Assembly: GCA_031375105.1 (NCBI GenBank)
Contig: JANMHJ010000040.1
Span: 37,798-101,797, forward strand
DNA from: Variovorax sp.
GTDB lineage: Bacteria; Pseudomonadota; Gammaproteobacteria; Burkholderiales; Burkholderiaceae_C
Length of the DNA stretch: 64,000 nt
Direction of reading: 5' to 3'
The notes beneath the pieces are model-generated. The model was not told where the DNA came from and did no database searches. It was given only the letters and a program-made list of their open reading frames with translations. Both the position numbers and the translations under genes were made by a program. Each line of letters opens with the position of its first letter. Positions within the stretch are counted from its first letter, which is position 1. Shown here in pieces: positions 26,852-62,537 of this stretch.

Positions 26852-28806
26852 TGCTCGCAGAACGACCCAACAACATCGAGGAGCCCGCCTTGAGCGAAGC
26901 AAATAAACACAACGACCATCCCAATCAATTCGCCCTGCTCGGCCAACGCCGCTTCGCTCCGTTTTTCTGGACGCAGTTTGCAGGCGCGGCGAATGACAAT
27001 GTTTTTAAATTTGCCTTCACCGTGATGGTCACGTATCAGCTCTCCATCAGCTGGATGCAGCCTGCGATGGCGGGGTTGGTGATTGGGGCGTTGTTTATTT
27101 TGCCATTTTTGTTGTTTTCCGCCACCAGTGGGCAGCTGACTGACAAGTATGAAAAAAGCAAAATCATCCGCTTCGTGAAGAATTTAGAAATTGCGATCAT
27201 GCTGATTGCAGCTTACGGCTTCTTCAATGCCAATGTGCCTGTGTTGCTGGGTTGTACTTTTCTCATGGGCTTGCATTCCACGCTATTTGGCCCAGTGAAG
27301 TTTGCCTACATGCCGCAGGTGCTCAACGAGCGTGAGCTTACAGGCGGCAACGGCATGGTGGAGATGGGCACGTTTGTGGCGATTCTTGCAGGCAATATCG
27401 TTGGCGGTGTTTTGATTGCTCTACCCGGCATCGGTGCTACGTATGTTGCTATCACTTGTATAGCAGCTGCTGTTTTGGGAAGAATCGTTGCGCAGTATAT
27501 TCCGGCCACACCTGCGACCGACCCCACGCTTCAAATCAACTGGAATCCTTTCACCGAGACTTGGAAGAACTTGAAATTAGCGCACGGCAATATCGTCGTC
27601 TTCCGCTCTTTGCTGGGCATCAGTTGGATGTGGTTTTTTGGTGCGGTTTTCTTGAGTCAATTCCCCAGCTTTGCCAAAGACGTGTTGCATGGCAGCTCCA
27701 ATGTGGCTTCGCTCTTGCTCGTCGTTTTCTCGATCGGCATTGCCACGGGCTCGTTGCTGTGCGAGGTATTTTCTCGCAGACATGTGGAGATTGGCCTCGT
27801 ACCGCTGGGCGCGATTGGCATGAGTGTATTTGCGCTGGATTTGTATTTTGCTTCTCGCAGTTTGCCTCAGGCTGAGCTGCTCACCGTGATGCAGTTCATC
27901 AGCATCAGCGCACATTGGCGCGTGATGGCGGATTTGTTTTTGCTCAGCTTGTTTGCGGGGCTCTACAGCGTGCCTATGTATGCGTTGATCCAGCTGCGCA
28001 GCCAGCCCACGCACCGCGCCCGCATCATCGCTGCCAACAATATTTTGAACGCGCTCTTCATGATTGCCAGCAGCCTGATCGTTGGCGCATTGCTCGGCAG
28101 CGGTTTTACGATTCCGCAGGTTTTCTTGTTCACCGCGCTGGCCAATGCGATGGTGGCTATCTACATCTTCCTGCTCGTGCCCGAATACTTCCTGCGCTTC
28201 GTTGCTTGGGTGGCTTCACGCTGCATCTATCGATTCAAAGTCACTGGCGATGAAAACATTCCTACCAGCGGCGCAGCCATCCTCGCTTGCAACCATGTGA
28301 GCTTTGTGGATGCCATTTTGCTCATGGCCGCCAGCCCGCGCCCCATCGTCTTCGTGATGGATCACCGCATCTTCAAAATGCCCGTGCTCGGTTGGTTCTT
28401 CAAACTCGCCAAAGCTATTCCCATTGCTTCTAAAGCTGAAGACCCCGCTGCCTACGAAGCTGCGTTCACAGCCGCTGGTAAAGTGCTCAAAGCAGGCGAT
28501 ATGCTCGCCATCTTCCCCGAAGGCGGTATCACCCGCGACGGTACGTTGCAAGAATTCAAAGGCGGCATCATGAAAATCTTGGAACAAGCCAAGCTACAGG
28601 GTATCGAGCCACCCGTGATTCCCATGGCGCTCACCAATCTCTGGGGCAGCTACTTCAGCCGTATTGAGAAAGACGGCGCGATGATCAGACCGTTTCGTCG
28701 GGGGTTGTTTAATCGGGTGGGGTTGAATGTGGGTATCGCAATTGAGGCACAAGATGTCCAGCCTCAGGCATTGCGCACTAGCGTTCATGCTCTGTTGTCG
28801 CGCTGA
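26851..28806 (+). CDS. Lysophospholipid transporter LplT (MFS) fused to 1-acyl-glycerol-3-phosphate-type acyltransferase (Aas/PlsC-like)
   Basis: N-terminal 12-TM MFS domain. C-terminal acyltransferase with HX4D motif (CNHVSFVDAILL) and FPEGG motif. 651 aa. Confidence 0.8.
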   Translation: MLAERPNNIEEPALSEANKHNDHPNQFALLGQRRFAPFFWTQFAGAANDNVFKFAFTVMVTYQLSISWMQPAMAGLVIGALFILPFLLFSATSGQLTDKYEKSKIIRFVKNLEIAIMLIAAYGFFNANVPVLLGCTFLMGLHSTLFGPVKFAYMPQVLNERELTGGNGMVEMGTFVAILAGNIVGGVLIALPGIGATYVAITCIAAAVLGRIVAQYIPATPATDPTLQINWNPFTETWKNLKLAHGNIVVFRSLLGISWMWFFGAVFLSQFPSFAKDVLHGSSNVASLLLVVFSIGIATGSLLCEVFSRRHVEIGLVPLGAIGMSVFALDLYFASRSLPQAELLTVMQFISISAHWRVMADLFLLSLFAGLYSVPMYALIQLRSQPTHRARIIAANNILNALFMIASSLIVGALLGSGFTIPQVFLFTALANAMVAIYIFLLVPEYFLRFVAWVASRCIYRFKVTGDENIPTSGAAILACNHVSFVDAILLMAASPRPIVFVMDHRIFKMPVLGWFFKLAKAIPIASKAEDPAAYEAAFTAAGKVLKAGDMLAIFPEGGITRDGTLQEFKGGIMKILEQAKLQGIEPPVIPMALTNLWGSYFSRIEKDGAMIRPFRRGLFNRVGLNVGIAIEAQDVQPQALRTSVHALLSR

Positions 28807-50051: not shown

Positions 50052-50816
50052 ATGACCCAAGATTTGTTTCGCCAAGATGCCTATTTGAGCGAATGCAGCG
50101 CCACTGTGCTGGCCGTCACTGAGCAGGGGGTGATTCTGGATCGCACCGTGTTTTATCCGCTTGGCGGCGGGCAGGCGGGAGATGCGGGCTGGCTGGTGTT
50201 GCCCGATGGCCACGAGCTGGTGGTGAGCGATACGCGCAAAGCCAAGGATGCTACGGGGTTGCCCACAACAGATATTTTGCATGTTTTGGCTCCTGAGCAT
50301 CTACAAATCCTACATAGTTTGCTATTAAATTCAGAGCAGACAGGCGCTGCGATACAACTCACCGCTCGCATCGACTGGCCGCGCCGCTATTCGCTGATGC
50401 GCTTTCACACCACTACACATCTGCTGTGTCATCTCGTGCCCCAGCTTGTCAACGGCTGCTCGATCACGGCTGATTACGCACGGCTGGATTTCAACATGAC
50501 CGAGCCGTTAGACAAAGAGCTGCTGAGCGCCGGCATCGCCCAGCTCGTGCAAGCCGCGCATCCCGTCACTTTGAGCAGCATCACTGATGAAGAGCTCGAT
50601 GCCAACCCCGCCCTCGTCAAAAGCATGAGCGTTAGCCCCCCGCGCGGTAGCGGCGTGATCCGCACGATTCGCGTGGGATCCAAGCAACTGATTGACCTGC
50701 AACCCTGCGGCGGCACACATGTGGCCAACACGTCTGAGATTGGCGATGTGCGCGTGATCAAAATTGAGAAAAAATCCGCCACGACGCGGCGAGTGGTGTT
50801 AGGATTTTGCCCATGA
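50052..50816 (+). CDS. alaX: Alanyl-tRNA editing protein AlaX-M (Ser-tRNA(Ala) deacylase)
   Basis: tRNA_SAD-type editing domain with HxxxH (FHTTTHLLCHLV) and CxxxH (CGGTHV) zinc motifs. Confidence 0.8.
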   Translation: MTQDLFRQDAYLSECSATVLAVTEQGVILDRTVFYPLGGGQAGDAGWLVLPDGHELVVSDTRKAKDATGLPTTDILHVLAPEHLQILHSLLLNSEQTGAAIQLTARIDWPRRYSLMRFHTTTHLLCHLVPQLVNGCSITADYARLDFNMTEPLDKELLSAGIAQLVQAAHPVTLSSITDEELDANPALVKSMSVSPPRGSGVIRTIRVGSKQLIDLQPCGGTHVANTSEIGDVRVIKIEKKSATTRRVVLGFCP

Positions 50817-56852: not shown

Positions 56853-57620
56853 TCATCGCGTAAAGCCTGTCGCCGCGCGGCCACTGCCCTTGGTCACCAT
56901 TGGGGGCACTTCGATCATGCCCATCTCGTCTAAAAACACGCTGGAGCGCGCCTCTTCTGTGGGCCAAGCCTGATCCCAACGATCTGGTTTTGCTGTACTT
57001 GATTTTTTCTTGGGCACATTGGCTTCGCGCAACTCCAACCGTGTGGCCTGCCATTCCGATTCGGGATGCTGCATCGACATCATTTGAGAATGCTGCTCGG
57101 CGGCTTGCAATTCAGGCATCACCATCGCGCGGATGGTTTTCGTGTCAGGCAAATCGTCACTGGTGATTTGCCAAATAGGAATTTGCGCCATCTCCAGTGC
57201 TTTGAGCTTGCGTTGCGTGCCCTCGGATGCCTGTCGTCCCGGCTTACCCGATTGCAACTGAATCACGCCCAGCACATCCCCCTGCTCAGAGCAGATCAAG
57301 AAATCCACGCAGCGTCGCCCCACGCTGCCAAACCATTGGTTGTAGGAGCGGTTTTGCGTCACGCTCAAGAATCGCGCGAGTGCAATCTGCGGCATCAAAA
57401 GGCATTCTGGCAATGCACGGCGCAGCAACACCAACACGCGCAGCTCGGCAGGTGTGAGTGGGCGCATCGTGCGCGGCTGCCAGTCGTCTAAGCGAAATGG
57501 CCGAACCTTGCCGCTGTGCACCACAGGCGCAGAGCGCTGCCACAAAACCCAAGTGATTGCAGCCAACCCAAGCACCACCAAAGCCGCCAGGGGCCAAACC
57601 CAAGTTGAGAGCATATTCAT
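56853..57620 (-). CDS. DUF2726 (NERD/restriction-endonuclease-like fold) membrane-anchored protein
   Basis: N-terminal TM helix, then …LRVLVLLRRALPECLLMPQIALARFL…WFGSVGRRCVDFLICSEQGDVLGVIQL… matching the DUF2726 pattern. Start set at the ATG at 57618-57620. Confidence 0.6.
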   Translation of the reverse strand: MNMLSTWVWPLAALVVLGLAAITWVLWQRSAPVVHSGKVRPFRLDDWQPRTMRPLTPAELRVLVLLRRALPECLLMPQIALARFLSVTQNRSYNQWFGSVGRRCVDFLICSEQGDVLGVIQLQSGKPGRQASEGTQRKLKALEMAQIPIWQITSDDLPDTKTIRAMVMPELQAAEQHSQMMSMQHPESEWQATRLELREANVPKKKSSTAKPDRWDQAWPTEEARSSVFLDEMGMIEVPPMVTKGSGRAATGFTR

Positions 57621-57749
57621 AACACCCCATATAAGAAAGTTATTGCCAAGATGCCGCGCAGACACAATTGCCAGCTCGGCAGCGTTTGTTGCATTATGTG
57701 GCCGAGAATGCAAGCGCAGGCAAGCACACGTATGGAGTGTGACGGAGTG

Positions 57750-58973
57750 TTAACCCTTCACGCACACTACTTGCTTGAGCGTGTGCACCACGTCGACCAG
57801 ATCGCTTTGCGCCGCCATCACTGCGTCAATGTCCTTGTAGGCAGCAGGTGTCTCGTCAATCACGTCTTTGTCTTTGCGGCATTCCACGCCTTCTGTCGCA
57901 TTGCGGTGATCTGCCAGCGTGAAGCGGCGCTTGGCTTCGCCTCGGCTCATGATGCGCCCCGCGCCGTGTGAACACGATTCAAACGACTCCGGATTGCCTG
58001 TGCCGCGCACGATGTAGCTGCGCGCGCCCATGCTGCCGGGGATGATGCCCAACTGGCCTTTTTTTGCGCTCACTGCACCTTTGCGTGTGACGAATACGTC
58101 TTCCCCAAAATGCGTTTCCTTTTGCACATAGTTGTGGTGACAGTTCACCGCTTCGATATGCGATTGAAAACTCTTGTGGATCACAGTTTTCGCAGCATCA
58201 ATCACGCGGCGCATCATTACCTCGCGATTGGTGGCTGCAAACTTCTGCGCCCAGCCCACAGCGCGCACATAGTCGCCAAAATAACGTGCGCCTTCCTCGA
58301 AATAAGCCAGATCACGATCCGGCAGATTCGCGTTGTTGCGCAGCGCATCTTGCTTGGCCAGCTCGATAAACATCGTGCCGATGAAGTTACCCACACCGCG
58401 CGAGCCCGAATGCAGCATGAACCACACAAAGCCCGCTTCGTCTAGGCACACTTCAATGAAGTGATTGCCTGAGCCTAGCGTGCCCAAATGGTTGCGATGA
58501 TTCGTCTTGCCGATCTTCGGATAGTCTTTGCATAGCTCGGTGAATTCAGGCTCAAGTTGAGCCCAAGCCGTGTCCACCGAGCCCGGCACTTTATGCCAAG
58601 CCCCCGGATCACGCGTACCCGGCACTCGCCCATGCGGCACAGCGCGCTCAATCGCCGAGCGCAGCGGCGCCAGGTTGTCTGGCAAATCCTCCGCGCGCAG
58701 CGTCGTCTTCGCCGCCATCATGCCGCAGCCAATGTCAACACCGACAGCGGCGGGAATGATGGCTTTGATCGTCGGAATCACCGAGCCAATCGTCGCGCCA
58801 ATGCCGAAATGCACATCCGGCATCACCGCCACATGCTTAAACACAATTGGCAGCCGAGCCGCATTCGTCAGTTGACGACGCGCCTCATCCTCCACCGGCA
58901 CACCGCGCGTCCACATCTTAATAGGCACACCGCCGGGGGTTTGTTCTTCAATATAGTTAGTTTCCATGTCCAT
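57750..58973 (-). CDS. rtcB: RtcB-family RNA 3'-phosphate ligase
   Basis: RtcB motifs throughout (…MPDVHFGIGATIGSV…, …GSGNHFIE…, …HGAGR…). Start MDMETNY with AAGGAG RBS. Confidence 0.9.
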   Translation of the reverse strand: MDMETNYIEEQTPGGVPIKMWTRGVPVEDEARRQLTNAARLPIVFKHVAVMPDVHFGIGATIGSVIPTIKAIIPAAVGVDIGCGMMAAKTTLRAEDLPDNLAPLRSAIERAVPHGRVPGTRDPGAWHKVPGSVDTAWAQLEPEFTELCKDYPKIGKTNHRNHLGTLGSGNHFIEVCLDEAGFVWFMLHSGSRGVGNFIGTMFIELAKQDALRNNANLPDRDLAYFEEGARYFGDYVRAVGWAQKFAATNREVMMRRVIDAAKTVIHKSFQSHIEAVNCHHNYVQKETHFGEDVFVTRKGAVSAKKGQLGIIPGSMGARSYIVRGTGNPESFESCSHGAGRIMSRGEAKRRFTLADHRNATEGVECRKDKDVIDETPAAYKDIDAVMAAQSDLVDVVHTLKQVVCVKG

Positions 58974-59034
58974 GATTTTCTCCTTGAAACTTGGGGTGTG
59001 CTTTGCAGCACGCCCCAAGCCCTAATGATTGTGC

Positions 59035-60178
59035 TTAACGAAGCTTTACCAGCCCATTCAGCACCTGATCCAAACCTCCGAACACGGAGATCTTGTCGAT
59101 ACGCTCAGCCACGCGCTCCAGTGTCTCCAGCTCTTTCAGGCGCAGTGCGATGGGGTTGTCCTCCATCACCTTGGCCGTGTTGAGCAGAGAGCGAGTAGCA
59201 GCTGTTTCTTCGCGGCGGCGGATCACGTTGGCTTCAGCGGATTTACTCGCTTCCACCACCTGAGCGAAGATGGTTTTCATCTCGCCAGGCAGCACGATAT
59301 CTTTCACGCCCACGCTTTGGAGCTGTAGGCCTTGCGCGGAAAGCTTAGCGCGAACATGCCCGAGAACGACCTCGTCGATGACGGTTTTGTTCTCCAGCAG
59401 CTCGTCGAGCGTGCGCGTGCCAACGGCAGCGCGCAGGCCGAGCTGCAGCTCGCGATACAGATGCTCTGCTGGCTTGGCCAGTTGGGCAAATGCCTCACGC
59501 ACATCGGTGTAGCGCCACGTTGCAGACAGGTTCAGACGCAGGCCGACTTTATCGCGCGTCAGAATATCTTGCCCTGAAACTTCCAACGTTTGCAGACGCA
59601 AATCCACCAGCTCCACGGCCACTTGGCGGCCAAACTTCCAGAAAGCGTAAGCACCGGGTACGAGCAGCTTGTCAATCTTGCTGTCCACCGTGAGCACGCC
59701 CACGTTGTGTTCAGGCACTTGGCTCATGAGCAGGCCGGTGAGCCCCTGCACCGCGCGTTGGCGCAGTTGGGTTTGCGTCAGGCGCTGCGCGAGAGCAGCA
59801 GTGAGTTCAAAAGTCTCAACGATCTCCAGCACCTCGATGCGGACATCCACCAAGCCTTTCCAATACAGGCGGCGAGTAGCAGGCGCGAGGATTTCGACGA
59901 GGACGCCGTTTTCCACGCGCAGACCCACTTGCGTCTCCGTCAGTTCGACGCGCACGAACTCTTCAGCTACCACTTCAGGCTCTTTGGCCATGAGGTAGTC
60001 TGCCAAGCTGTGCGCGAAGGCGGTTTGGTCGATAGCAAAAGTATCGATGCGCAGCTTGTCAAAGCCCTCAAACAGCCAGTAGCGGCCAGGCTTCATGATG
60101 CGCTCGAAATCGCCATTGCGTAGCAAGATGCCGCGCTCGTTTTTCTTGATGGTCACACGTTTGAACATGTTGTTCTCC
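59035..60178 (-). CDS. SPFH/band-7 domain protein (cytoplasmic, no TM)
   Basis: MFKRVTIKKNERGILLRNGDFERIMKPGRYWLFEGFDKLRIDTF is SPFH-like, followed by a long coiled-coil C-terminus. AAGGAGA RBS 7 nt upstream of ATG 60178; 13-nt gap to rtcB. Confidence 0.7.
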
Positions 60179-60474
60179 TTATGAAATGTGTAAGAGTGAA
60201 TAAAGGTGCCGTTACAGGAGCTGCAGTGGATGATGAATGCCTGCCTGAAGGTGATGCCGTGCGCTTTAAGCGTTTGCGAAGTGCAATCAAGACATTCGCG
60301 CTGGCTCAAGCTGGCGGCTCACGCCCAGGCCGCGTGCCCATCACACGGGCCGCAGTCGCTGACAGCGTTTGATTGGGCTCTTTGAATCAGCAAGCTGATT
60401 CGTTGAACTGCATCTCGCGCTGCGTTCGGCGGGTGGTCTTGCGACCGTTTGGTTAGCTTGGCTTTTCAGACCAA

Positions 60475-60548
60475 AGTTTGGAACAGGAGTCGAACCTGCG
60501 ACAGACGATTTATCAGATCGTTGCTCTTACCAACTGAGCTATCCAGTG
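60475..60548 (-). pseudogene. Degenerate tRNA-Ile(GAT)-like gene (acceptor stem disrupted; no CCA)
   Basis: Canonical D-arm (TAGCTCAGTTGGTAAGAGC), anticodon arm (ACGAT-CTGATAA-ATCGT) and T-arm (GCAGG-TTCGACT-CCTGT). Only 4 of 7 acceptor pairs form (5' CACTGGA vs 3' TCCAAAC). The 5' end overlaps the CCA of the upstream minihelix by 2 nt. Confidence 0.4.
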
Positions 60549-60600
60549 GTGGTCATGGCGGGACTCGAACCCGCGCCTTACGGCACACCATGTCATGACC
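60547..60600 (-). other. tRNA-like minihelix (acceptor stem, T-arm and GNRA hairpin; no D or anticodon arm), CCA encoded
   Basis: GGTCATG-ACATGGTGT-GCC GTAA GGC-GCGGG TTCGAGT CCCGC-CATGACC-A-CCA. Perfect 7-bp acceptor stem, canonical T-arm, and a GTAA tetraloop hairpin in place of the anticodon arm. Confidence 0.3.
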
Positions 60601-60730
60601 CTATCTGAGCTTGAAACTGTGCGGCATACGTAGCACCGATCTTTCAAAAGAGATGCTGCGCACCGGCGGAGCGCGCTTTCGCGCCAACCCCTGACCTGTT
60701 AGCGTTCAGTTCTTCACAACAGATTCTTGT

Positions 60731-60759
60731 GCGGTTGAACTAGTGCTTAGTTCAACCGC
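60731..60759. terminator. Perfect 12-bp-stem hairpin at the 3' end of the array-embedded HNH gene (terminator or processing site)
   Basis: GCGGTTGAACTA-gtgct-TAGTTCAACCGC. The HNH stop codon lies in the loop. Followed on the + strand by GATCCTTTT. Confidence 0.4.
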
Positions 60760-61319
60760 GATCCTTTTGGCAGGCGAGCTGCCAGCCATTCATGCACGTC
60801 GGCGCGAATGTGTCGACCTGCGAGTAGGAAGTCTTCGAAGCGGTTGGGCACATAGGGTGCGTAGAGCAGCGGCATACCGGCTTCTTCCGGTGTGCGCGCT
60901 GCTTTGCGTCCGTTGCATGCGCCGCAAGCTGTGACCAGATTCATCCAGCTCCATGCGCCGCCGCGTGATGCGGGCAGGATGTGCTCGCACTGCAGATCAC
61001 GCTCATGAAACTGGTCGCCGCAGTAAGCGCAGGTGAATCGGTCACGCCGAAACAGCTTGTGTTTACTGAAGCCGGGTACGATGTCAAACAAATTGACCCG
61101 TGCCGAGCCATGTAGCGCGATGATGGGATAGACCTCCAGTACCGAGGGCTTGCCGCGCGGCACATTGAAGCCGCCACGCAGCACAGCAAGCGGGCTCGCG
61201 CCCTCGCACCAAGCCACAGAATCTGCAGCCACATGCGTTGCCGCTTGTTCAAGAGAAATCCAAGCCTGCGGCGTGCCTTGAATATCGAGTTGCAGCACAT
61301 GGCTGCGATGGGTTTGCAT
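60747..61319 (-). CDS. HNH endonuclease embedded in the tRNA array
   Basis: CAYCGDQFHERDLQCEHILPASRGGAWSWMNLVTACGACNGRK HNH motif. AAGGAG RBS. Located between the tRNA-His gene and the minihelix. Confidence 0.75.
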   Translation of the reverse strand: MQTHRSHVLQLDIQGTPQAWISLEQAATHVAADSVAWCEGASPLAVLRGGFNVPRGKPSVLEVYPIIALHGSARVNLFDIVPGFSKHKLFRRDRFTCAYCGDQFHERDLQCEHILPASRGGAWSWMNLVTACGACNGRKAARTPEEAGMPLLYAPYVPNRFEDFLLAGRHIRADVHEWLAARLPKGSRLN

Positions 61320-61351: not shown

Positions 61352-61426
61352 TGGGTTGTTCAACCAGATTCGAACTGGTGTCTTCAGGGTCACATCCTGA
61401 AATGCTGCCGCTGCACCATGAACAAC
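61352..61426 (-). tRNA. tRNA-His (GTG), with G-1 and encoded CCA; non-host-like sequence
   Basis: G(-1)-TTGTTCA-TG-GTGC…; anticodon arm TCAGG-ATGTGAC-CCTGA; T-arm ACCAG-TTCGAAT-CTGGT; acceptor TGAACAA; C73; CCA. G-1:C73 is diagnostic for His. Confidence 0.65.
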
Positions 61427-61431
61427 ATATT

Positions 61432-61509
61432 TGGTATCTCGTGAAGGATTCGAACCCTCAACCCCCGACTTCGTAAGACGGTGCTCTGATTCCGTTGAGC
61501 TAACGAGAT
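61432..61509 (-). tRNA. tRNA-Arg (ACG), CCA encoded; A1-U72, AT-rich acceptor
   Basis: ATCTCGT-TA-GCTC…GAGC-A-CCGTC-TTACGAA-GTCGG-GGGTT-GAGGG-TTCGAAT-CCTTC-ACGAGAT-A-CCA. One T·T mismatch in the anticodon stem. Confidence 0.7.
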
Positions 61510-61518
61510 AAAAACTGA

Positions 61519-61591
61519 CGCCCCGAGAAAGTCTCGAACTTCCAACCTGCGGATTTCGAGGCCGCTGCTCTGCCAATTGAGCAATCGGGAC
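61519..61591 (-). tRNA. Class-I (short variable loop) tRNA with CGA (Ser-type) anticodon; no encoded CCA; identity uncertain
   Basis: GTCCCGA-TT-GCTC-AATTGGCA-GAGC-A-GCGGC-CTCGAAA-TCCGC-AGGTT-GGAAG-TTCGAGA-CTTTC-TCGGGGC-G. Full cloverleaf but a 5-nt variable loop, which is incompatible with canonical tRNA-Ser. Confidence 0.45.
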
Positions 61592-61595
61592 ATAT

Positions 61596-61671
61596 TGGCG
61601 TCTCTTATCGGAGTCGAACCGATGGCTTTCTCCTAGACAGGGAGACACTCTGGCCACTGAGTTAACGAGAC
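61596..61671 (-). tRNA. tRNA-Asp (GTC), CCA encoded; pyrimidine at position 37
   Basis: GTCTCGT-TA-ACTC-AGTGGCCA-GAGT-G-TCTCC-CTGTCTA-GGAGA-AAGCC-ATCGG-TTCGACT-CCGAT-AAGAGAC-G-CCA. One G·A acceptor mismatch. Confidence 0.6.
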
Positions 61672-61677
61672 GAAAAT

Positions 61678-61752
61678 TGGCAAACCGCAGGGGTATCGAT
61701 CCCCTCTCTACAGATTGAAAGTCTGCTGGCCACACCTGCTGCCTCGCGGTTC
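61678..61752 (-). tRNA. tRNA-Glu (TTC)-like, CCA encoded; unusual A54 T-loop (ATCGATA)
   Basis: GAACCGC…GCAGA-CTTTCAA-TCTGT-AGAG-AGGGG-ATCGATA-CCCCT-GCGGTTT-G-CCA. The acceptor pairs include a G1·U72 wobble. Confidence 0.5.
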
Positions 61753-61757
61753 ATAAA

Positions 61758-61835
61758 TGGTCTGGGTGGCTGGCTTCGATCCAGCGGCCTCCTGCTTCCA
61801 AAGCAGGCCGTCTACCTGACTGACATTACACCCAG
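61758..61835 (-). tRNA. tRNA-Pro (TGG)-like, CCA encoded; C1-G72, extra nucleotide at 8-9, A54 T-loop
   Basis: CTGGGTG-TAA-TGTC-AGTCAGGTA-GACG-G-CCTGC-TTTGGAA-GCAGG-AGGCC-GCTGG-ATCGAAG-CCAGC-CACCCAG-A-CCA. Confidence 0.5.
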
Positions 61836-61841
61836 AAAAAT

Positions 61842-61918
61842 TGGTGCCCCAGGGGAGATTCGAACTCCCAGAATCCTGTGTCTGAGACAGGCATGTATGC
61901 CGGTTCCATCACCGGGGC
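61842..61918 (-). tRNA. Class-I (short variable loop) tRNA with CAG (Leu-type) anticodon, A73, CCA encoded; identity uncertain
   Basis: GCCCCGG-TG-ATGG…ACAT-G-CCTGT-CTCAGAC-ACAGG-ATTCT-GGGAG-TTCGAAT-CTCCC-CTGGGGC-A-CCA. First gene of the array (promoter-proximal). Confidence 0.45.
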
Positions 61919-61936
61919 GTGAAGTGTTGTGATTTC

Positions 61937-62076
61937 ACTTCGGCTGTGTCCACACGCGAAGACCCGCACATGCGGATCAAACTGTTCGCTGCACAGGCAA
62001 GAGCGACTTGCATGCACATGCGCTGCATCGCAGTTTGCGAGAATTCGAGCAGCGTGGTGTGTGGGCACACCCGAAG
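61937..62076. ncRNA. Structured leader or putative ncRNA upstream of the tRNA array: about 22-bp inverted repeat arms flanking about 100 nt rich in internal palindromes
   Basis: CACTTCGGCTGTGTCCACAC (61937-61956) matches the reverse complement of GTGTGTGGGCACACCCGAAGTG (62055-62076). The interior holds GCGAAGACCCGCACATGCGG…, TGCATGCA and related palindromes. Confidence 0.3.
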
Positions 62077-62195
62077 TGAAACGGCGTTTGATCTAACGAT
62101 CAAAACAGCCGAACTTCTTTTCAACAAATTGTTAAAGAACAGTGACGCATTTGCACAATGCAAAGCTGCGCCCTCATGGCACGATGACCACGATG

Positions 62196-62239
62196 AAAAA
62201 AGACAACAAAAAAGCCCGATCTCGTTTCCAAGACCGGGC
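62196..62239 (-). terminator. Orphan Rho-independent terminator on the minus strand, upstream of the tRNA-array promoter region
   Basis: Minus strand reads GCCCGGTCTTGGAAACGAGATCGGGC followed by TTTTTTGTTGTCTTTTTT. No convincing minus-strand ORF lies upstream of it. Confidence 0.5.
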
Positions 62240-62537
62240 CTACAGAGGTAGGTGAAGACGGTACGTGAGTTACACGTGACCCTCGCCCGGTGGGGCTGAA
62301 TAATCCAATGCCTTCGGCTCAAAGCCTAGGCGCGAGCTATGCATGACATTCAGCCGCGCACAGCCACACCAAGCCTGAGCGGCTAAGCGTGTGGGGGATG
62401 CGATACGGTTAAACATATGAAGCTCTTGAAAAAATTAAAATGCAGAAAACTGCGATAGAACGTAATGTAAAGACTCTTTACTGGATCGTCAACATCTGCG
62501 ACAATTATTTTTTGATTTCGTTGCGAATTTTCAACAC

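What the first reader, a model, noticed from the sequence alone, without database searches (positions are those of the whole stretch)
61519..61591. Class-I tRNA carrying a Ser-type CGA anticodon
The cloverleaf is complete, with a 7-bp acceptor stem, D-, anticodon- and T-arms. The variable loop is only 5 nt (AGGTT), whereas every bacterial tRNA-Ser needs a long variable arm for SerRS recognition. The anticodon loop CTCGAAA gives CGA. This could be a decoy, a recoding or mis-acylated tRNA, or a degenerate gene. It also lacks an encoded CCA, unlike its neighbours.
Basis: seen in the sequence. Interest (0 to 1): 0.7.

Follow-up and report, generated by a model that had tools for sequence, protein, structure and literature searches.

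The report
Trp tRNA with mutated anticodon
The odd "serine" tRNA is a spare tryptophan tRNA gene in an accessory tRNA cluster that has picked up a one-base change in the middle of its anticodon (CCA to CGA) in this strain only, so it is most likely a crippled spare copy and not a new decoding device.

Summary
On the minus strand at 61519-61591 there is a well-scoring class-I tRNA (Rfam 50.3 bits; ARAGORN) with anticodon CGA, a 5-nt variable loop and no encoded CCA.

It is not a serine tRNA. Two sister contigs, 99.2-99.3% identical, carry the same gene with anticodon CCA. The only difference across 1.56 kb (HNH gene plus seven tRNAs) is window base 61557, which is anticodon position 35. Orthologues in the same chromosomal context (L091, L093) are tRNA-Trp(CCA) with G73 and an encoded CCA. 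The nearest relatives among 733 tRNAs from related loci are all tRNA-Trp.

The gene sits in a 7-tRNA accessory array followed by an HNH endonuclease, a tRNA-like RNA, an SPFH protein and RtcB. This is a known kind of horizontally spread "L-array". TrpRS reads C35 directly and SerRS needs the long arm, so the product is probably poorly charged or uncharged: a recent, tolerated loss-of-function allele. UCG→Trp mistranslation is not excluded but is unlikely.

Interest is low.

Other features of these arrays look more interesting:
- a conserved class-I tRNA-Leu
- a class-II-looking tRNA-Cys
- a composite tRNA-like RNA whose anticodon varies between loci

The parts
61519..61591 (-). tRNA-Trp-derived gene carrying anticodon CGA (class I, G73, C31-U39 mismatch)
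   Evidence: ARAGORN. Rfam tRNA 50.3 bits. Identical to the tRNA-Trp(CCA) of L004 and L006 except at one base. Orthologues L091 3464-3539 and L093 3379-3454 are Trp(CCA), 67/73 and 66/73 identical.
61556..61558 (-). Anticodon CGA. The middle base (window 61557; C on + strand, G in the RNA) is the only polymorphic site
   Evidence: Pairwise alignments of the window with L004 and L006 show 61557 as the only difference between 60784 and 62344.
61516..61518 (-). 3' trailer UCA where orthologues encode CCA
   Evidence: Sequence. L091 and L093 read ...GGGATG CCA GTTTT, whereas the window reads ...GGGGCG TCA GTTTT.
61352..61918 (-). Seven-gene accessory tRNA array: Leu(CAG, class I) 61842-61918, Pro(UGG) 61758-61835, Glu(UUC) 61678-61752, Asp(GUC) 61596-61671, Trp*(CGA), Arg(ACG) 61432-61509, His(GUG) 61352-61425
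   Evidence: ARAGORN and Rfam. Related arrays of 5-27 tRNAs sit upstream of the same HNH gene in Burkholderiales genomes and megaplasmids.
60747..61319 (-). HNH endonuclease gene immediately downstream of the array
   Evidence: Pfam HNH_5, HNH and HNH_4. 327 relatives in genome contigs and 913 protein clusters at E<=1e-60.
60436..60650 (-). Conserved composite tRNA-like non-coding RNA. It has a minihelix (acceptor stem + T arm + ACCA, ~60548-60600), a cloverleaf with only a 4-bp acceptor stem and 'anticodon' GAU (60476-60547), and small hairpins
   Evidence: ARAGORN and a partial Rfam tRNA hit. Sub-threshold YrlA, tmRNA and mascRNA hits. Conserved with covariation in 16-31 loci.
59035..60309 (-). 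SPFH/Band-7 protein gene (longest ORF; the gene called in L004 is shorter, 377 aa)
   Evidence: Pfam Band_7. Found downstream of HNH in 45 of 87 sequences (86 loci plus the window).
57750..59018 (-). RtcB RNA ligase gene
   Evidence: Pfam RtcB, E = 2.6e-127. Linked to HNH in 62 of 87 sequences (86 loci plus the window).
56853..57713 (-). DUF2726 protein gene, the last gene of the inserted block before the chromosomal AhpC and DsbD genes
   Evidence: Pfam DUF2726. Same order in L007, L091, L093 and L094.

Best explanation
The gene is a supernumerary tRNA-Trp. It belongs to a small, horizontally acquired accessory tRNA array (tRNAs - HNH endonuclease - tRNA-like RNA - SPFH - RtcB) inserted in a Comamonadaceae-like chromosome.

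Shown:
- In the lineage of this window the gene first lost its encoded 3' CCA (now UCA) and changed at positions 9, 71 and 72.
- In this particular strain a single C->G transversion then hit anticodon position 35, turning CCA (Trp) into CGA (reads UCG, Ser).

Inferred:
- Bacterial TrpRS reads C35 base-specifically, and SerRS needs the long variable arm. The RNA, if made, should therefore be charged poorly or not at all. It would then act as a null or near-null allele.
- The allele is tolerated because the array is redundant with the housekeeping tRNA set. By analogy with the L-arrays studied in Anabaena and Acidithiobacillus, the array is also probably little expressed under normal growth.
For: Origin of the gene:
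1. Contigs L004 (NCBI MAG GCA_031430675.1) and L006 (SRR20217180), 99.3% and 99.2% identical to the window, carry the same 73-nt gene with CCA. Position 61557 is the only difference between 60784 and 62344.
2. Orthologues in the same HAD - array - HNH - SPFH - RtcB - DUF2726 - AhpC context (L091, L093) are tRNA-Trp(CCA) with G73 and an encoded CCA. They are 66-67/73 identical overall and 37-39/41 identical over positions 8-48.
3. Among 733 tRNAs from 90 related loci, the best matches are tRNA-Trp of other arrays, and Trp has the highest median identity. The core also resembles E. coli tRNA-Trp, 31/41. The genuine array tRNA-Ser(CGA) of M. petroleiphilum is class II and unrelated.

The CGA state as a rare tip mutation:
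4. Across 25 orthologue clusters, anticodon columns are more conserved than the rest (0.13 versus 0.36 extra states per column). Anticodon-shifted copies are rare tip variants (one or two sequences per cluster): Lys CTT->CGT, Met CAT->CAC, Ile GAT->GAC. This is the pattern expected of sporadic, unfixed mutations.
5. Only 15 tRNA-Trp genes turned up in the ~90 loci of the first survey, some of them truncated, so Trp is a dispensable array member.

Expected loss of charging:
6. In the E. coli TrpRS-tRNA structure, C35 is H-bonded by Lys274, Thr225 and Asp226. The anticodon and G73 are the major Trp determinants (PMC12135181 and PMC9976931). Serine identity depends on the size of the long arm.
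7. In the Anabaena L-array, 3 of 26 tRNAs are undetectable pseudogenes and the operon is normally silent (PMC8421152).
Against: - Nothing here measures expression or charging.
- The cloverleaf is intact and the score is as good as that of its neighbours, so the RNA could be made and processed. A CCA-adding enzyme could restore the 3' end.
- One SNP in ~570 bp of array landing on an anticodon base has a prior of only about 4% (21 of ~570 positions). This could hint at selection.
- Residual Trp charging of a C35G mutant cannot be excluded without kinetics for this organism's TrpRS.
- The CGA allele is seen in the window and in L005, which are 100% identical and may come from the same sample. Its population frequency is therefore unknown.
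Confidence: 0.78

Rival explanations
1. It is a working missense tRNA. It is still charged with Trp (or with another amino acid by a relaxed synthetase) and inserts it at UCG codons when the array is induced. That would be a natural mistranslation device like Streptomyces tRNA-ProX.
For: The cloverleaf is intact with a good Rfam score. G73 and the rest of the Trp body are retained. The array is linked to RtcB, so it is plausibly stress-induced as in Anabaena. Precedent exists for dual-identity tRNAs (PMC10404621).
Against: - C35 is a major, directly read TrpRS determinant.
- The CGA state occurs only in the window and its identical contig L005 and is not conserved.
- No aaRS paralogue lies next to it. 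The only aaRS-related ORF in the ~26 kb scanned (38-64 kb) is an AlaX-like editing protein 10 kb away, in housekeeping context. tRNA-ProX genes, by contrast, are typically next to a ProRSx gene.
- UCG is the second commonest Ser codon here, 11.9 per 1000, so efficient Trp insertion would be costly.
- The 3' CCA is lost.
Confidence: 0.07
2. The tRNA acts without decoding, as a sponge or decoy for a tRNA-cleaving toxin or anticodon nuclease. The anticodon change alters which nuclease it baits or escapes.
For: The array neighbours RtcB, a ligase that repairs cleaved tRNA. A sponge role for array tRNAs was proposed for Anabaena. Phage tRNAs escape nucleases through anticodon-loop changes (PMC10264068). 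A neighbouring tRNA-like RNA shows a freely varying 'anticodon'.
Against: Escape mutations described for phage tRNAs keep the decoding triplet, whereas here the triplet itself is changed. The change is a tip mutation seen only in the window and its identical contig L005. No nuclease gene specific for tRNA-Trp or tRNA-Ser was identified in the window.
Confidence: 0.08
3. The G at position 35 is a sequencing or assembly error, or a minority variant that was promoted to consensus.
For: Only one base differs. The two sequences that show G (the window and L005) are 100% identical over 4.7 kb and may derive from the same reads.
Against: L005 is an independent Logan assembly of run SRR20217215 and reproduces the base. 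The flanks show ordinary strain-level SNPs relative to L004 and L006, so these are distinct strains and not one template.
Confidence: 0.05
4. It is a true serine tRNA recognised by SerRS in a mitochondrion-like, arm-independent way.
For: Animal mitochondrial tRNA-Ser lack the long arm. G73 is present.
Against: The body is orthologous to tRNA-Trp(CCA). G2-C71, which is conserved in bacterial tRNA-Ser, is replaced by U2-G71. Genuine class-II tRNA-Ser genes exist in sister arrays.
Confidence: 0.01

Closest known systems
Anticodon-shifted ('remoulded') tRNA genes: a tRNA body of one isotype carrying another isotype's anticodon after a point mutation. Gene finders flag these as isotype/anticodon disagreement (general knowledge).
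   Same: A single substitution in the anticodon of an otherwise unchanged tRNA body. The ancestral state is directly visible in sister strains. The same kind of event recurs in related arrays: Lys->Thr, Met->Val and Ile->Val anticodons.
   Different: Successful remoulding usually involves synthetases that ignore the anticodon, or synonymous/isoacceptor shifts. Here the donor isotype (Trp) depends on the anticodon and the recipient isotype (Ser) depends on a long arm that is absent. The shift therefore most likely inactivates the gene.
Long accessory tRNA arrays (L-arrays) linked to an HNH homing endonuclease and co-regulated with rtcB (Anabaena trn operon; Santamaria-Gomez et al. 2021, PMC8421152)
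   Same: Tandem same-strand supernumerary tRNAs next to an HNH gene and RtcB. Gene content varies between close relatives. The arrays also occur on megaplasmids. Some members are pseudogenes.
   Different: This array is short (7 genes against up to 43). It is chromosomal, in Burkholderiales, with HNH downstream of the array and not upstream. Its regulation is unknown.
E. coli tRNA-Trp anticodon mutants such as the amber suppressor, which is mischarged with Gln (cited in PMC9976931)
   Same: A mutation at tRNA-Trp position 35 removes the TrpRS determinant and changes the codon read.
   Different: The amber suppressor has U35, which creates a GlnRS determinant. G35 creates no obvious determinant for any synthetase: ThrRS also needs U36, and ProRS needs G36 and A73 (general knowledge of identity sets). 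No new acceptor identity is therefore predicted.
Streptomyces/Kitasatospora tRNA-ProX dual-identity tRNAs with ProRSx (PMC10404621)
   Same: A tRNA body of one identity carrying the anticodon of another amino acid.
   Different: Those tRNAs are conserved across genera, sit beside a dedicated synthetase isoform, and are shown to mistranslate. The CGA tRNA occurs only in the window and its identical contig L005, and it has no partner enzyme.

Membership tests
Bacterial tRNA-Ser | Long variable arm (class II); its size is the major SerRS identity element | tested here: not met
   The variable loop is 5 nt, AGGUU. For the identity rule see PMC9976931.
Bacterial tRNA-Ser | G1-C72 and G2-C71 conserved in the acceptor stem, and G73 | tested here: not met
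   G1-C72 and G73 are present, but position 2-71 is a U-G wobble.
Bacterial tRNA-Ser | Sequence relatedness to other tRNA-Ser genes of the same array family | tested here: not met
   Median identity to 24 array tRNA-Ser is 43 nt, against 54 nt for tRNA-Trp. It does not align with the class-II Ser(CGA) of L001.
Bacterial tRNA-Trp | Anticodon C34 C35 A36 | tested here: not met
   The window has C34 G35 A36. Sister contigs L004 and L006 and orthologues L091 and L093 have CCA. Membership is therefore by descent, not by current decoding.
Bacterial tRNA-Trp | Discriminator G73 | tested here: met
   G73 is at window 61519. All array tRNA-Trp and E. coli tRNA-Trp have G73.
Bacterial tRNA-Trp | Orthology or closest similarity to tRNA-Trp genes | tested here: met
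   It differs by one base from the Trp(CCA) of L004 and L006. It is 66-67/73 identical to L091 and L093 Trp. The top hits among 733 tRNAs are Trp.
Bacterial tRNA-Trp | A1-U72 first pair (minor element in E. coli and B. subtilis) | tested here: not met
   The window has G1-C72. Orthologues L091 and L093 have G1-U72. This is a minor element only.
Bacterial tRNA-Trp | Aminoacylation by TrpRS | not testable with these tools
   Needs in vitro charging or acid-gel northern blots.
Accessory tRNA L-array with HNH endonuclease (PMC8421152) | Tandem, same-strand, closely spaced supernumerary tRNA genes | tested here: met
   Seven tRNAs lie in 567 bp with spacers of 3-6 nt.
Accessory tRNA L-array with HNH endonuclease (PMC8421152) | Adjacent conserved HNH endonuclease gene; RNA-repair genes (rtcB) in the neighbourhood | tested here: met
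   The HNH start codon (61319) lies 32 bp after the end of the last array tRNA (His, 61352). RtcB is 1.7 kb further on. HNH-RtcB linkage holds in 62 of 87 sequences (86 loci plus the window).
Accessory tRNA L-array with HNH endonuclease (PMC8421152) | Patchy distribution and variable content consistent with horizontal transfer | tested here: met
   Arrays of 5-27 tRNAs with different gene sets occur in close relatives and on megaplasmids.
Accessory tRNA L-array with HNH endonuclease (PMC8421152) | Silent in normal growth, induced by translational stress | not testable with these tools
   No consensus sigma-70 promoter was found between the upstream terminator (62212-62241) and the first tRNA. 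Expression data are needed.
Dedicated mistranslation tRNAs (tRNA-ProX type, PMC10404621) | Mismatched anticodon conserved across species | tested here: not met
   CGA occurs only in the window and the identical L005. All other lineage members have CCA.
Dedicated mistranslation tRNAs (tRNA-ProX type, PMC10404621) | Encoded next to a dedicated synthetase isoform | tested here: not met
   Pfam scans of the ORFs of at least 200 aa between 38 and 54 kb and of selected ORFs from 54 to 64 kb found no aaRS. They found only an AlaX-like editing-domain protein at 50052-50816, in housekeeping context.

The most novel reading that the evidence does not exclude
The CGA allele is not junk. It would be an expressed variant kept in part of the population. 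Either it still accepts some Trp, giving stress-inducible UCG(Ser)->Trp mistranslation when the array and RtcB module is switched on, or it serves as an altered bait for a tRNA-cleaving toxin. On this reading, accessory arrays would be a place where bacteria try out new anticodon/identity combinations. That would fit the recurrent anticodon shifts, the class-I tRNA-Leu and the class-II-looking tRNA-Cys seen in the same array family.
Probability: 0.05. Interest if true: 0.65.

Novelty: new member of a known kind. Interest (0 to 1): 0.2.

Why it matters
By itself it matters little. It is a caution that an anticodon-based isotype call ("tRNA-Ser") can be wrong in accessory arrays. It is also a clean natural snapshot of an anticodon-shift mutation caught between strains 99.3% identical, with the ancestral state in hand.

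It offers a ready-made natural test of how strictly a betaproteobacterial TrpRS depends on C35.

The wider value lies in the array family it led to: tRNA arrays joined to an HNH endonuclease and RtcB, present in hundreds of Burkholderiales genomes. These arrays hold conserved non-canonical tRNAs and a tRNA-like RNA that merit their own study.

Tried and rejected
- Deletion derivative of a class-II tRNA-Ser(CGA): rejected. The class-II Ser(CGA) of the M. petroleiphilum array does not align with it.
- Derivative of the tRNA-Phe(GAA) that occupies the same slot (Asp-X-Arg) in many arrays, by a shifted loop register: rejected. The acceptor and anticodon stems differ, and Trp orthologues were found.
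- Exact-pattern scans for the lineage with a free anticodon (GCAGCGGCCTNNNAAATCCGCAGG) in JGI metagenome contigs and viral contigs: no hits. A looser Trp-body pattern gave 4 unrelated contigs with odd loops, which were uninformative.
- Phage and plasmid BLAST of the 2-kb region: phages gave only generic tRNA similarity. Plasmids gave the HNH-plus-array relatives.
- Promoter scan: no consensus sigma-70 promoter upstream of the array, only the upstream gene's terminator.
- Partner aaRS near the array: none.
- MFE folding: the CGA variant's minimum-energy fold pairs C34 and G35 with G42 and C41, whereas the CCA variant keeps an open loop. The cloverleaf-to-MFE gap differs by only 1 kcal/mol (4.6 versus 3.6), which is too weak to use.
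- My first structure string for the class-I Leu alignment was mis-registered and was redone.

Full report
**1. The observation.** ARAGORN finds eight tRNA genes in the window, all on the minus strand between 60476 and 61918. One of them is a 'tRNA-Ser (cga)' at 61517-61592. Rfam's tRNA model matches 61519-61591 end to end at 50.3 bits (gathering score 29, E = 8e-8), within the range of its neighbours at 50-55 bits.

Read on the minus strand the gene is GUCCCGA-UU-GCUC-AAUUGGCA-GAGC-A-GCGGC-CUCGAAA-UCCGC-AGGUU-GGAAG-UUCGAGA-CUUUC-UCGGGGC-G. It has a 7-bp acceptor stem (with a U2-G71 wobble) and a 5-nt variable loop. The anticodon is CGA, the discriminator is G73, and there is a C31-U39 mismatch at the bottom of the anticodon stem. 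The gene is followed by UCA, not CCA. The six other tRNAs of the array all encode CCA. The only thing missing was the strand.

**2. What it is.** An exact-sequence look-up of the HNH protein encoded 200 bp downstream returned three short contigs.
- L005 (Logan assembly of SRR20217215) is 100% identical to the window over 4.7 kb and has CGA.
- L004 (NCBI MAG GCA_031430675.1) is 99.3% identical and carries the same tRNA with anticodon CCA. ARAGORN calls it tRNA-Trp.
- L006 (SRR20217180) is 99.2% identical and also has CCA.

A base-by-base comparison shows ordinary strain SNPs in the flanks. Between window 60784 and 62344, which covers the HNH gene and all seven tRNAs, the only difference is position 61557, the middle base of the anticodon.

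More distant relatives were reached through the 90%-identity cluster of the HNH protein. They have the same chromosomal arrangement: HAD hydrolase - array - HNH - SPFH - RtcB - DUF2726 - AhpC. In L091 and L093 the slot after tRNA-Asp holds a tRNA-Trp(CCA) that is 67/73 and 66/73 identical to the window gene. Both have G73 and a proper encoded CCA end.

Compared with these orthologues, the window lineage (window, L004-L006) has changed position 9 (A->U), positions 71 and 72, and C74 (CCA->UCA). The window strain alone has the further change C35->G.

I extracted 733 tRNAs from 90 related loci. The best matches to the window gene are the tRNA-Trp genes of other arrays, and Trp is the isotype with the highest median identity. 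Positions 8-48 are 36-39/41 identical to array Trp genes and 31/41 identical to E. coli tRNA-Trp. The genuine tRNA-Ser(CGA) of the Methylibium petroleiphilum megaplasmid array is a 92-nt class-II tRNA and is unrelated to this gene. The 'class-I serine tRNA' is a tryptophan tRNA with a one-base anticodon mutation.

**3. Context.** The array is Leu(CAG), Pro, Glu, Asp, Trp*, Arg(ACG), His. It is followed on the same strand by:
- an HNH endonuclease (60747-61319)
- a tRNA-like non-coding region
- an SPFH/Band-7 protein
- the RNA ligase RtcB
- a DUF2726 protein

The genes further out are housekeeping ones: DsbD, AhpC, pyruvate dehydrogenase E1 and pyrimidine catabolism. The same insertion site is occupied in a Variovorax MAG (L007) and in the JGI contigs. 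This is therefore a chromosomal island in a Comamonadaceae-like bacterium.

The HNH gene with an upstream tRNA array is widespread in Burkholderiales. There are 327 relatives in one-genome-per-species contigs, arrays of up to 27 tRNAs, and copies on megaplasmids of Methylibium, Variovorax and Polaromonas. RtcB is linked in 62 of the 87 sequences examined (86 loci plus the window). In one locus type (L015 was examined) the partner is the full RtcR / Ro60 / RtcB / RlaP repair operon.

This matches the 'L-arrays' of Santamaria-Gomez et al. 2021 (PMC8421152). Those are horizontally spread supernumerary tRNA operons, linked to an HNH homing endonuclease and co-regulated with rtcB. In Anabaena and Acidithiobacillus, the two L-arrays studied, expression is normally kept low, and in Anabaena the array is induced by translational stress. 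Three of its 26 members are pseudogenes.

**4. How it most likely works (inference).** TrpRS uses the anticodon and G73 as major determinants. In the E. coli TrpRS-tRNA co-crystal, C35 is read through three hydrogen bonds, to Lys274, Thr225 and Asp226 (PMC12135181; PMC9976931). A G at position 35 removes these contacts. [quoted passage not shown]

From the published identity sets (my knowledge of them, not a test), I see no synthetase for which G35 + A36 + G73 on this body forms a good determinant set:
- ArgRS needs C35 and A20, but position 20 here is C.
- ThrRS needs U36.
- GlnRS needs U35.

The RNA, if made, should therefore be mostly uncharged.

The population picture agrees with a recent, unselected or mildly deleterious mutation. 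Across 25 orthologue clusters of array tRNAs, anticodon columns are more conserved than the rest of the molecule (0.13 versus 0.36 extra states per column). The exceptions are rare tip variants of the same kind (one or two sequences per cluster): Lys CTT->CGT in L011, Met CAT->CAC in L020, and Ile GAT->GAC in L029 and L050. tRNA-Trp is present in only a minority of arrays, so losing it costs little. The earlier loss of the encoded CCA in this lineage points the same way.

**5. Rivals.**
- *Programmed mistranslation device.* This is unlikely. The state is not conserved and no synthetase paralogue is nearby. The only aaRS-related ORF in the ~26 kb scanned (38-64 kb) is an AlaX-type editing protein at 50052-50816, in housekeeping context. 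UCG is a common codon here, 11.9 per 1000 and 19% of Ser codons, so efficient Trp insertion would be costly. UCG is not enriched in the island genes. Known dual-identity tRNAs (tRNA-ProX) are conserved and sit beside a dedicated ProRS isoform.
- *Decoy role.* This cannot be excluded at the level of the whole array, since it was proposed for Anabaena. Nothing ties it to this particular base change, however. The phage tRNA escape mutations described so far spare the decoding triplet.
- *Sequencing error.* This is unlikely because an independent Logan assembly reproduces the base, but the two CGA sequences may come from one sample.
- *Mitochondrion-like serine tRNA.* This is excluded by the orthology to Trp.

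**6. Comparison and novelty.** This is a new instance of a known phenomenon: an alloacceptor anticodon shift in a redundant tRNA gene, inside a known kind of element (accessory tRNA array with HNH and RtcB). It fails the defining tests for tRNA-Ser. It is a tRNA-Trp by descent but no longer by anticodon. It also fails the tests for a dedicated mistranslation system. I rate it of low interest.

**7. Things seen on the way that look more interesting than the finding.**
- *The neighbouring 'tRNA-Leu(CAG)'.* It lies at 61842-61918 and is also class I (77 nt). Unlike the CGA tRNA it is a conserved family. Six distinct sequences come from Variovorax, Ottowia and other genomes. All 120 pair cells are paired, compensatory changes occur in 7 pairs spread over all four stems, the discriminator is A73, the D arm looks Leu-like, and the anticodon is CAG or UAG, both leucine. 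The review literature states that tRNA-Leu carries a long arm everywhere except in animal mitochondria. It also reports that E. coli LeuRS does not need the arm. This looks like a natural bacterial class-I tRNA-Leu.
- *Long tRNA-Cys genes.* The arrays also carry 21 distinct 85-87-nt tRNA-Cys(GCA) genes with U73 and about 10 extra nucleotides in the variable region. I did not confirm that these form a paired arm.
- *A composite RNA between HNH and SPFH/RtcB.* It consists of a minihelix, a cloverleaf with only a 4-bp acceptor stem, and hairpins. The stems covary. The cloverleaf's 'anticodon' differs from locus to locus, with 13 different triplets among 35 elements. U33 is kept in all the loops and A37 in nearly all of them. 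The region gives sub-threshold YrlA, tmRNA and mascRNA hits.

Noticed in passing
window 61842-61918 (-); also L007 9048-9124, L051 9083-9159, L053 8120-8196, L065 9337-9413, L082 9364-9440, L091 3050-3126, L093 3047-3123, L096 2977-3053: A conserved class-I (77-nt, 5-nt variable loop) tRNA with a leucine anticodon (CAG, or UAG in L051), A73 and a Leu-like D arm. In six distinct sequences, 100% of pair cells are paired, with compensatory changes in 7 pairs across all four stems. The review literature says bacterial tRNA-Leu always has a long arm, so this looks like a functional arm-less bacterial tRNA-Leu.
   Followed up: partly
window ~60436-60650 (-); e.g. L010 9700-9900, L017 10660-10860, L044 10660-10860: A conserved composite non-coding RNA lies ~200 nt after the HNH stop and before SPFH/RtcB. 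Its parts are a CAYATGCCGC box, a minihelix (7-bp acceptor-like stem, small hairpin, T arm, ACCA), a tRNA cloverleaf with only a 4-bp acceptor stem, and a GTCG(A/C)AAG hairpin. The cloverleaf 'anticodon' varies between loci (gat, cat, gaa, cac, cgc, gca, ttt, tgg, ctc, gga, cgt), while U33 (always) and A37 (nearly always), the D arm and the T arm stay fixed and the anticodon stem covaries. Rfam hits are sub-threshold only: YrlA 30.2 bits (gathering score 69), plus tmRNA ends and mascRNA.
   Followed up: partly
L008 5844-5930, L013 7478-7563, L016 8735-8820, L020 8731-8817, L025 7107-7192 and others (21 distinct sequences): Array tRNA-Cys(GCA) genes are 85-87 nt long, with about 10 extra nucleotides in the variable region, a Ser/Tyr-like D arm and U73. 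This would be a class-II tRNA-Cys, but I did not confirm that the extra nucleotides form a paired arm. None is present in the window itself.
   Followed up: partly
L011 174-249; L020 9507-9581; L029 7861-7934 and L050 7566; L045 1616-1689; L050 7480: Other sporadic anticodon shifts on otherwise conserved array tRNA bodies: Lys CTT->CGT (1 mismatch to L013 Lys), Met CAT->CAC, Ile GAT->GAC, Lys TTT->TCC, and an Asn tRNA with an 8-nt loop. They are the same kind of event as the window's Trp CCA->CGA.
   Followed up: partly
L015 10658-16854: In L015 (and, judging from the larger HNH-RtcB spacing, probably similar loci) the HNH gene abuts a complete RNA-repair operon: RtcR (sigma-54 activator), a Ro60/TROVE-vWA protein, RtcB and RlaP. 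The window type has SPFH-RtcB-DUF2726 instead.
   Followed up: partly
window 61930-62082: A long-range inverted repeat (TTTCACTTCGGCTGTGTCCACAC ... GTGTGGGCACACCCGAAGTGAAA) brackets ~100 nt just upstream of the first tRNA of the array. It sits between the array and the upstream gene's terminator at 62212-62241 and could be a regulatory leader.
   Followed up: no
window 50052-50816 (+): A stand-alone AlaX-like protein (tRNA_SAD domain plus a fragment of the class-II AlaRS core) lies 10 kb from the array, among housekeeping genes. It is probably the ordinary trans-editing factor and unrelated to the array.
   Followed up: no
window 27566-27687 (+): Rfam match to Burkholderia sRNA Bcj11 (63.4 bits, gathering score 49). 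This is consistent with a Burkholderiales host.
   Followed up: no
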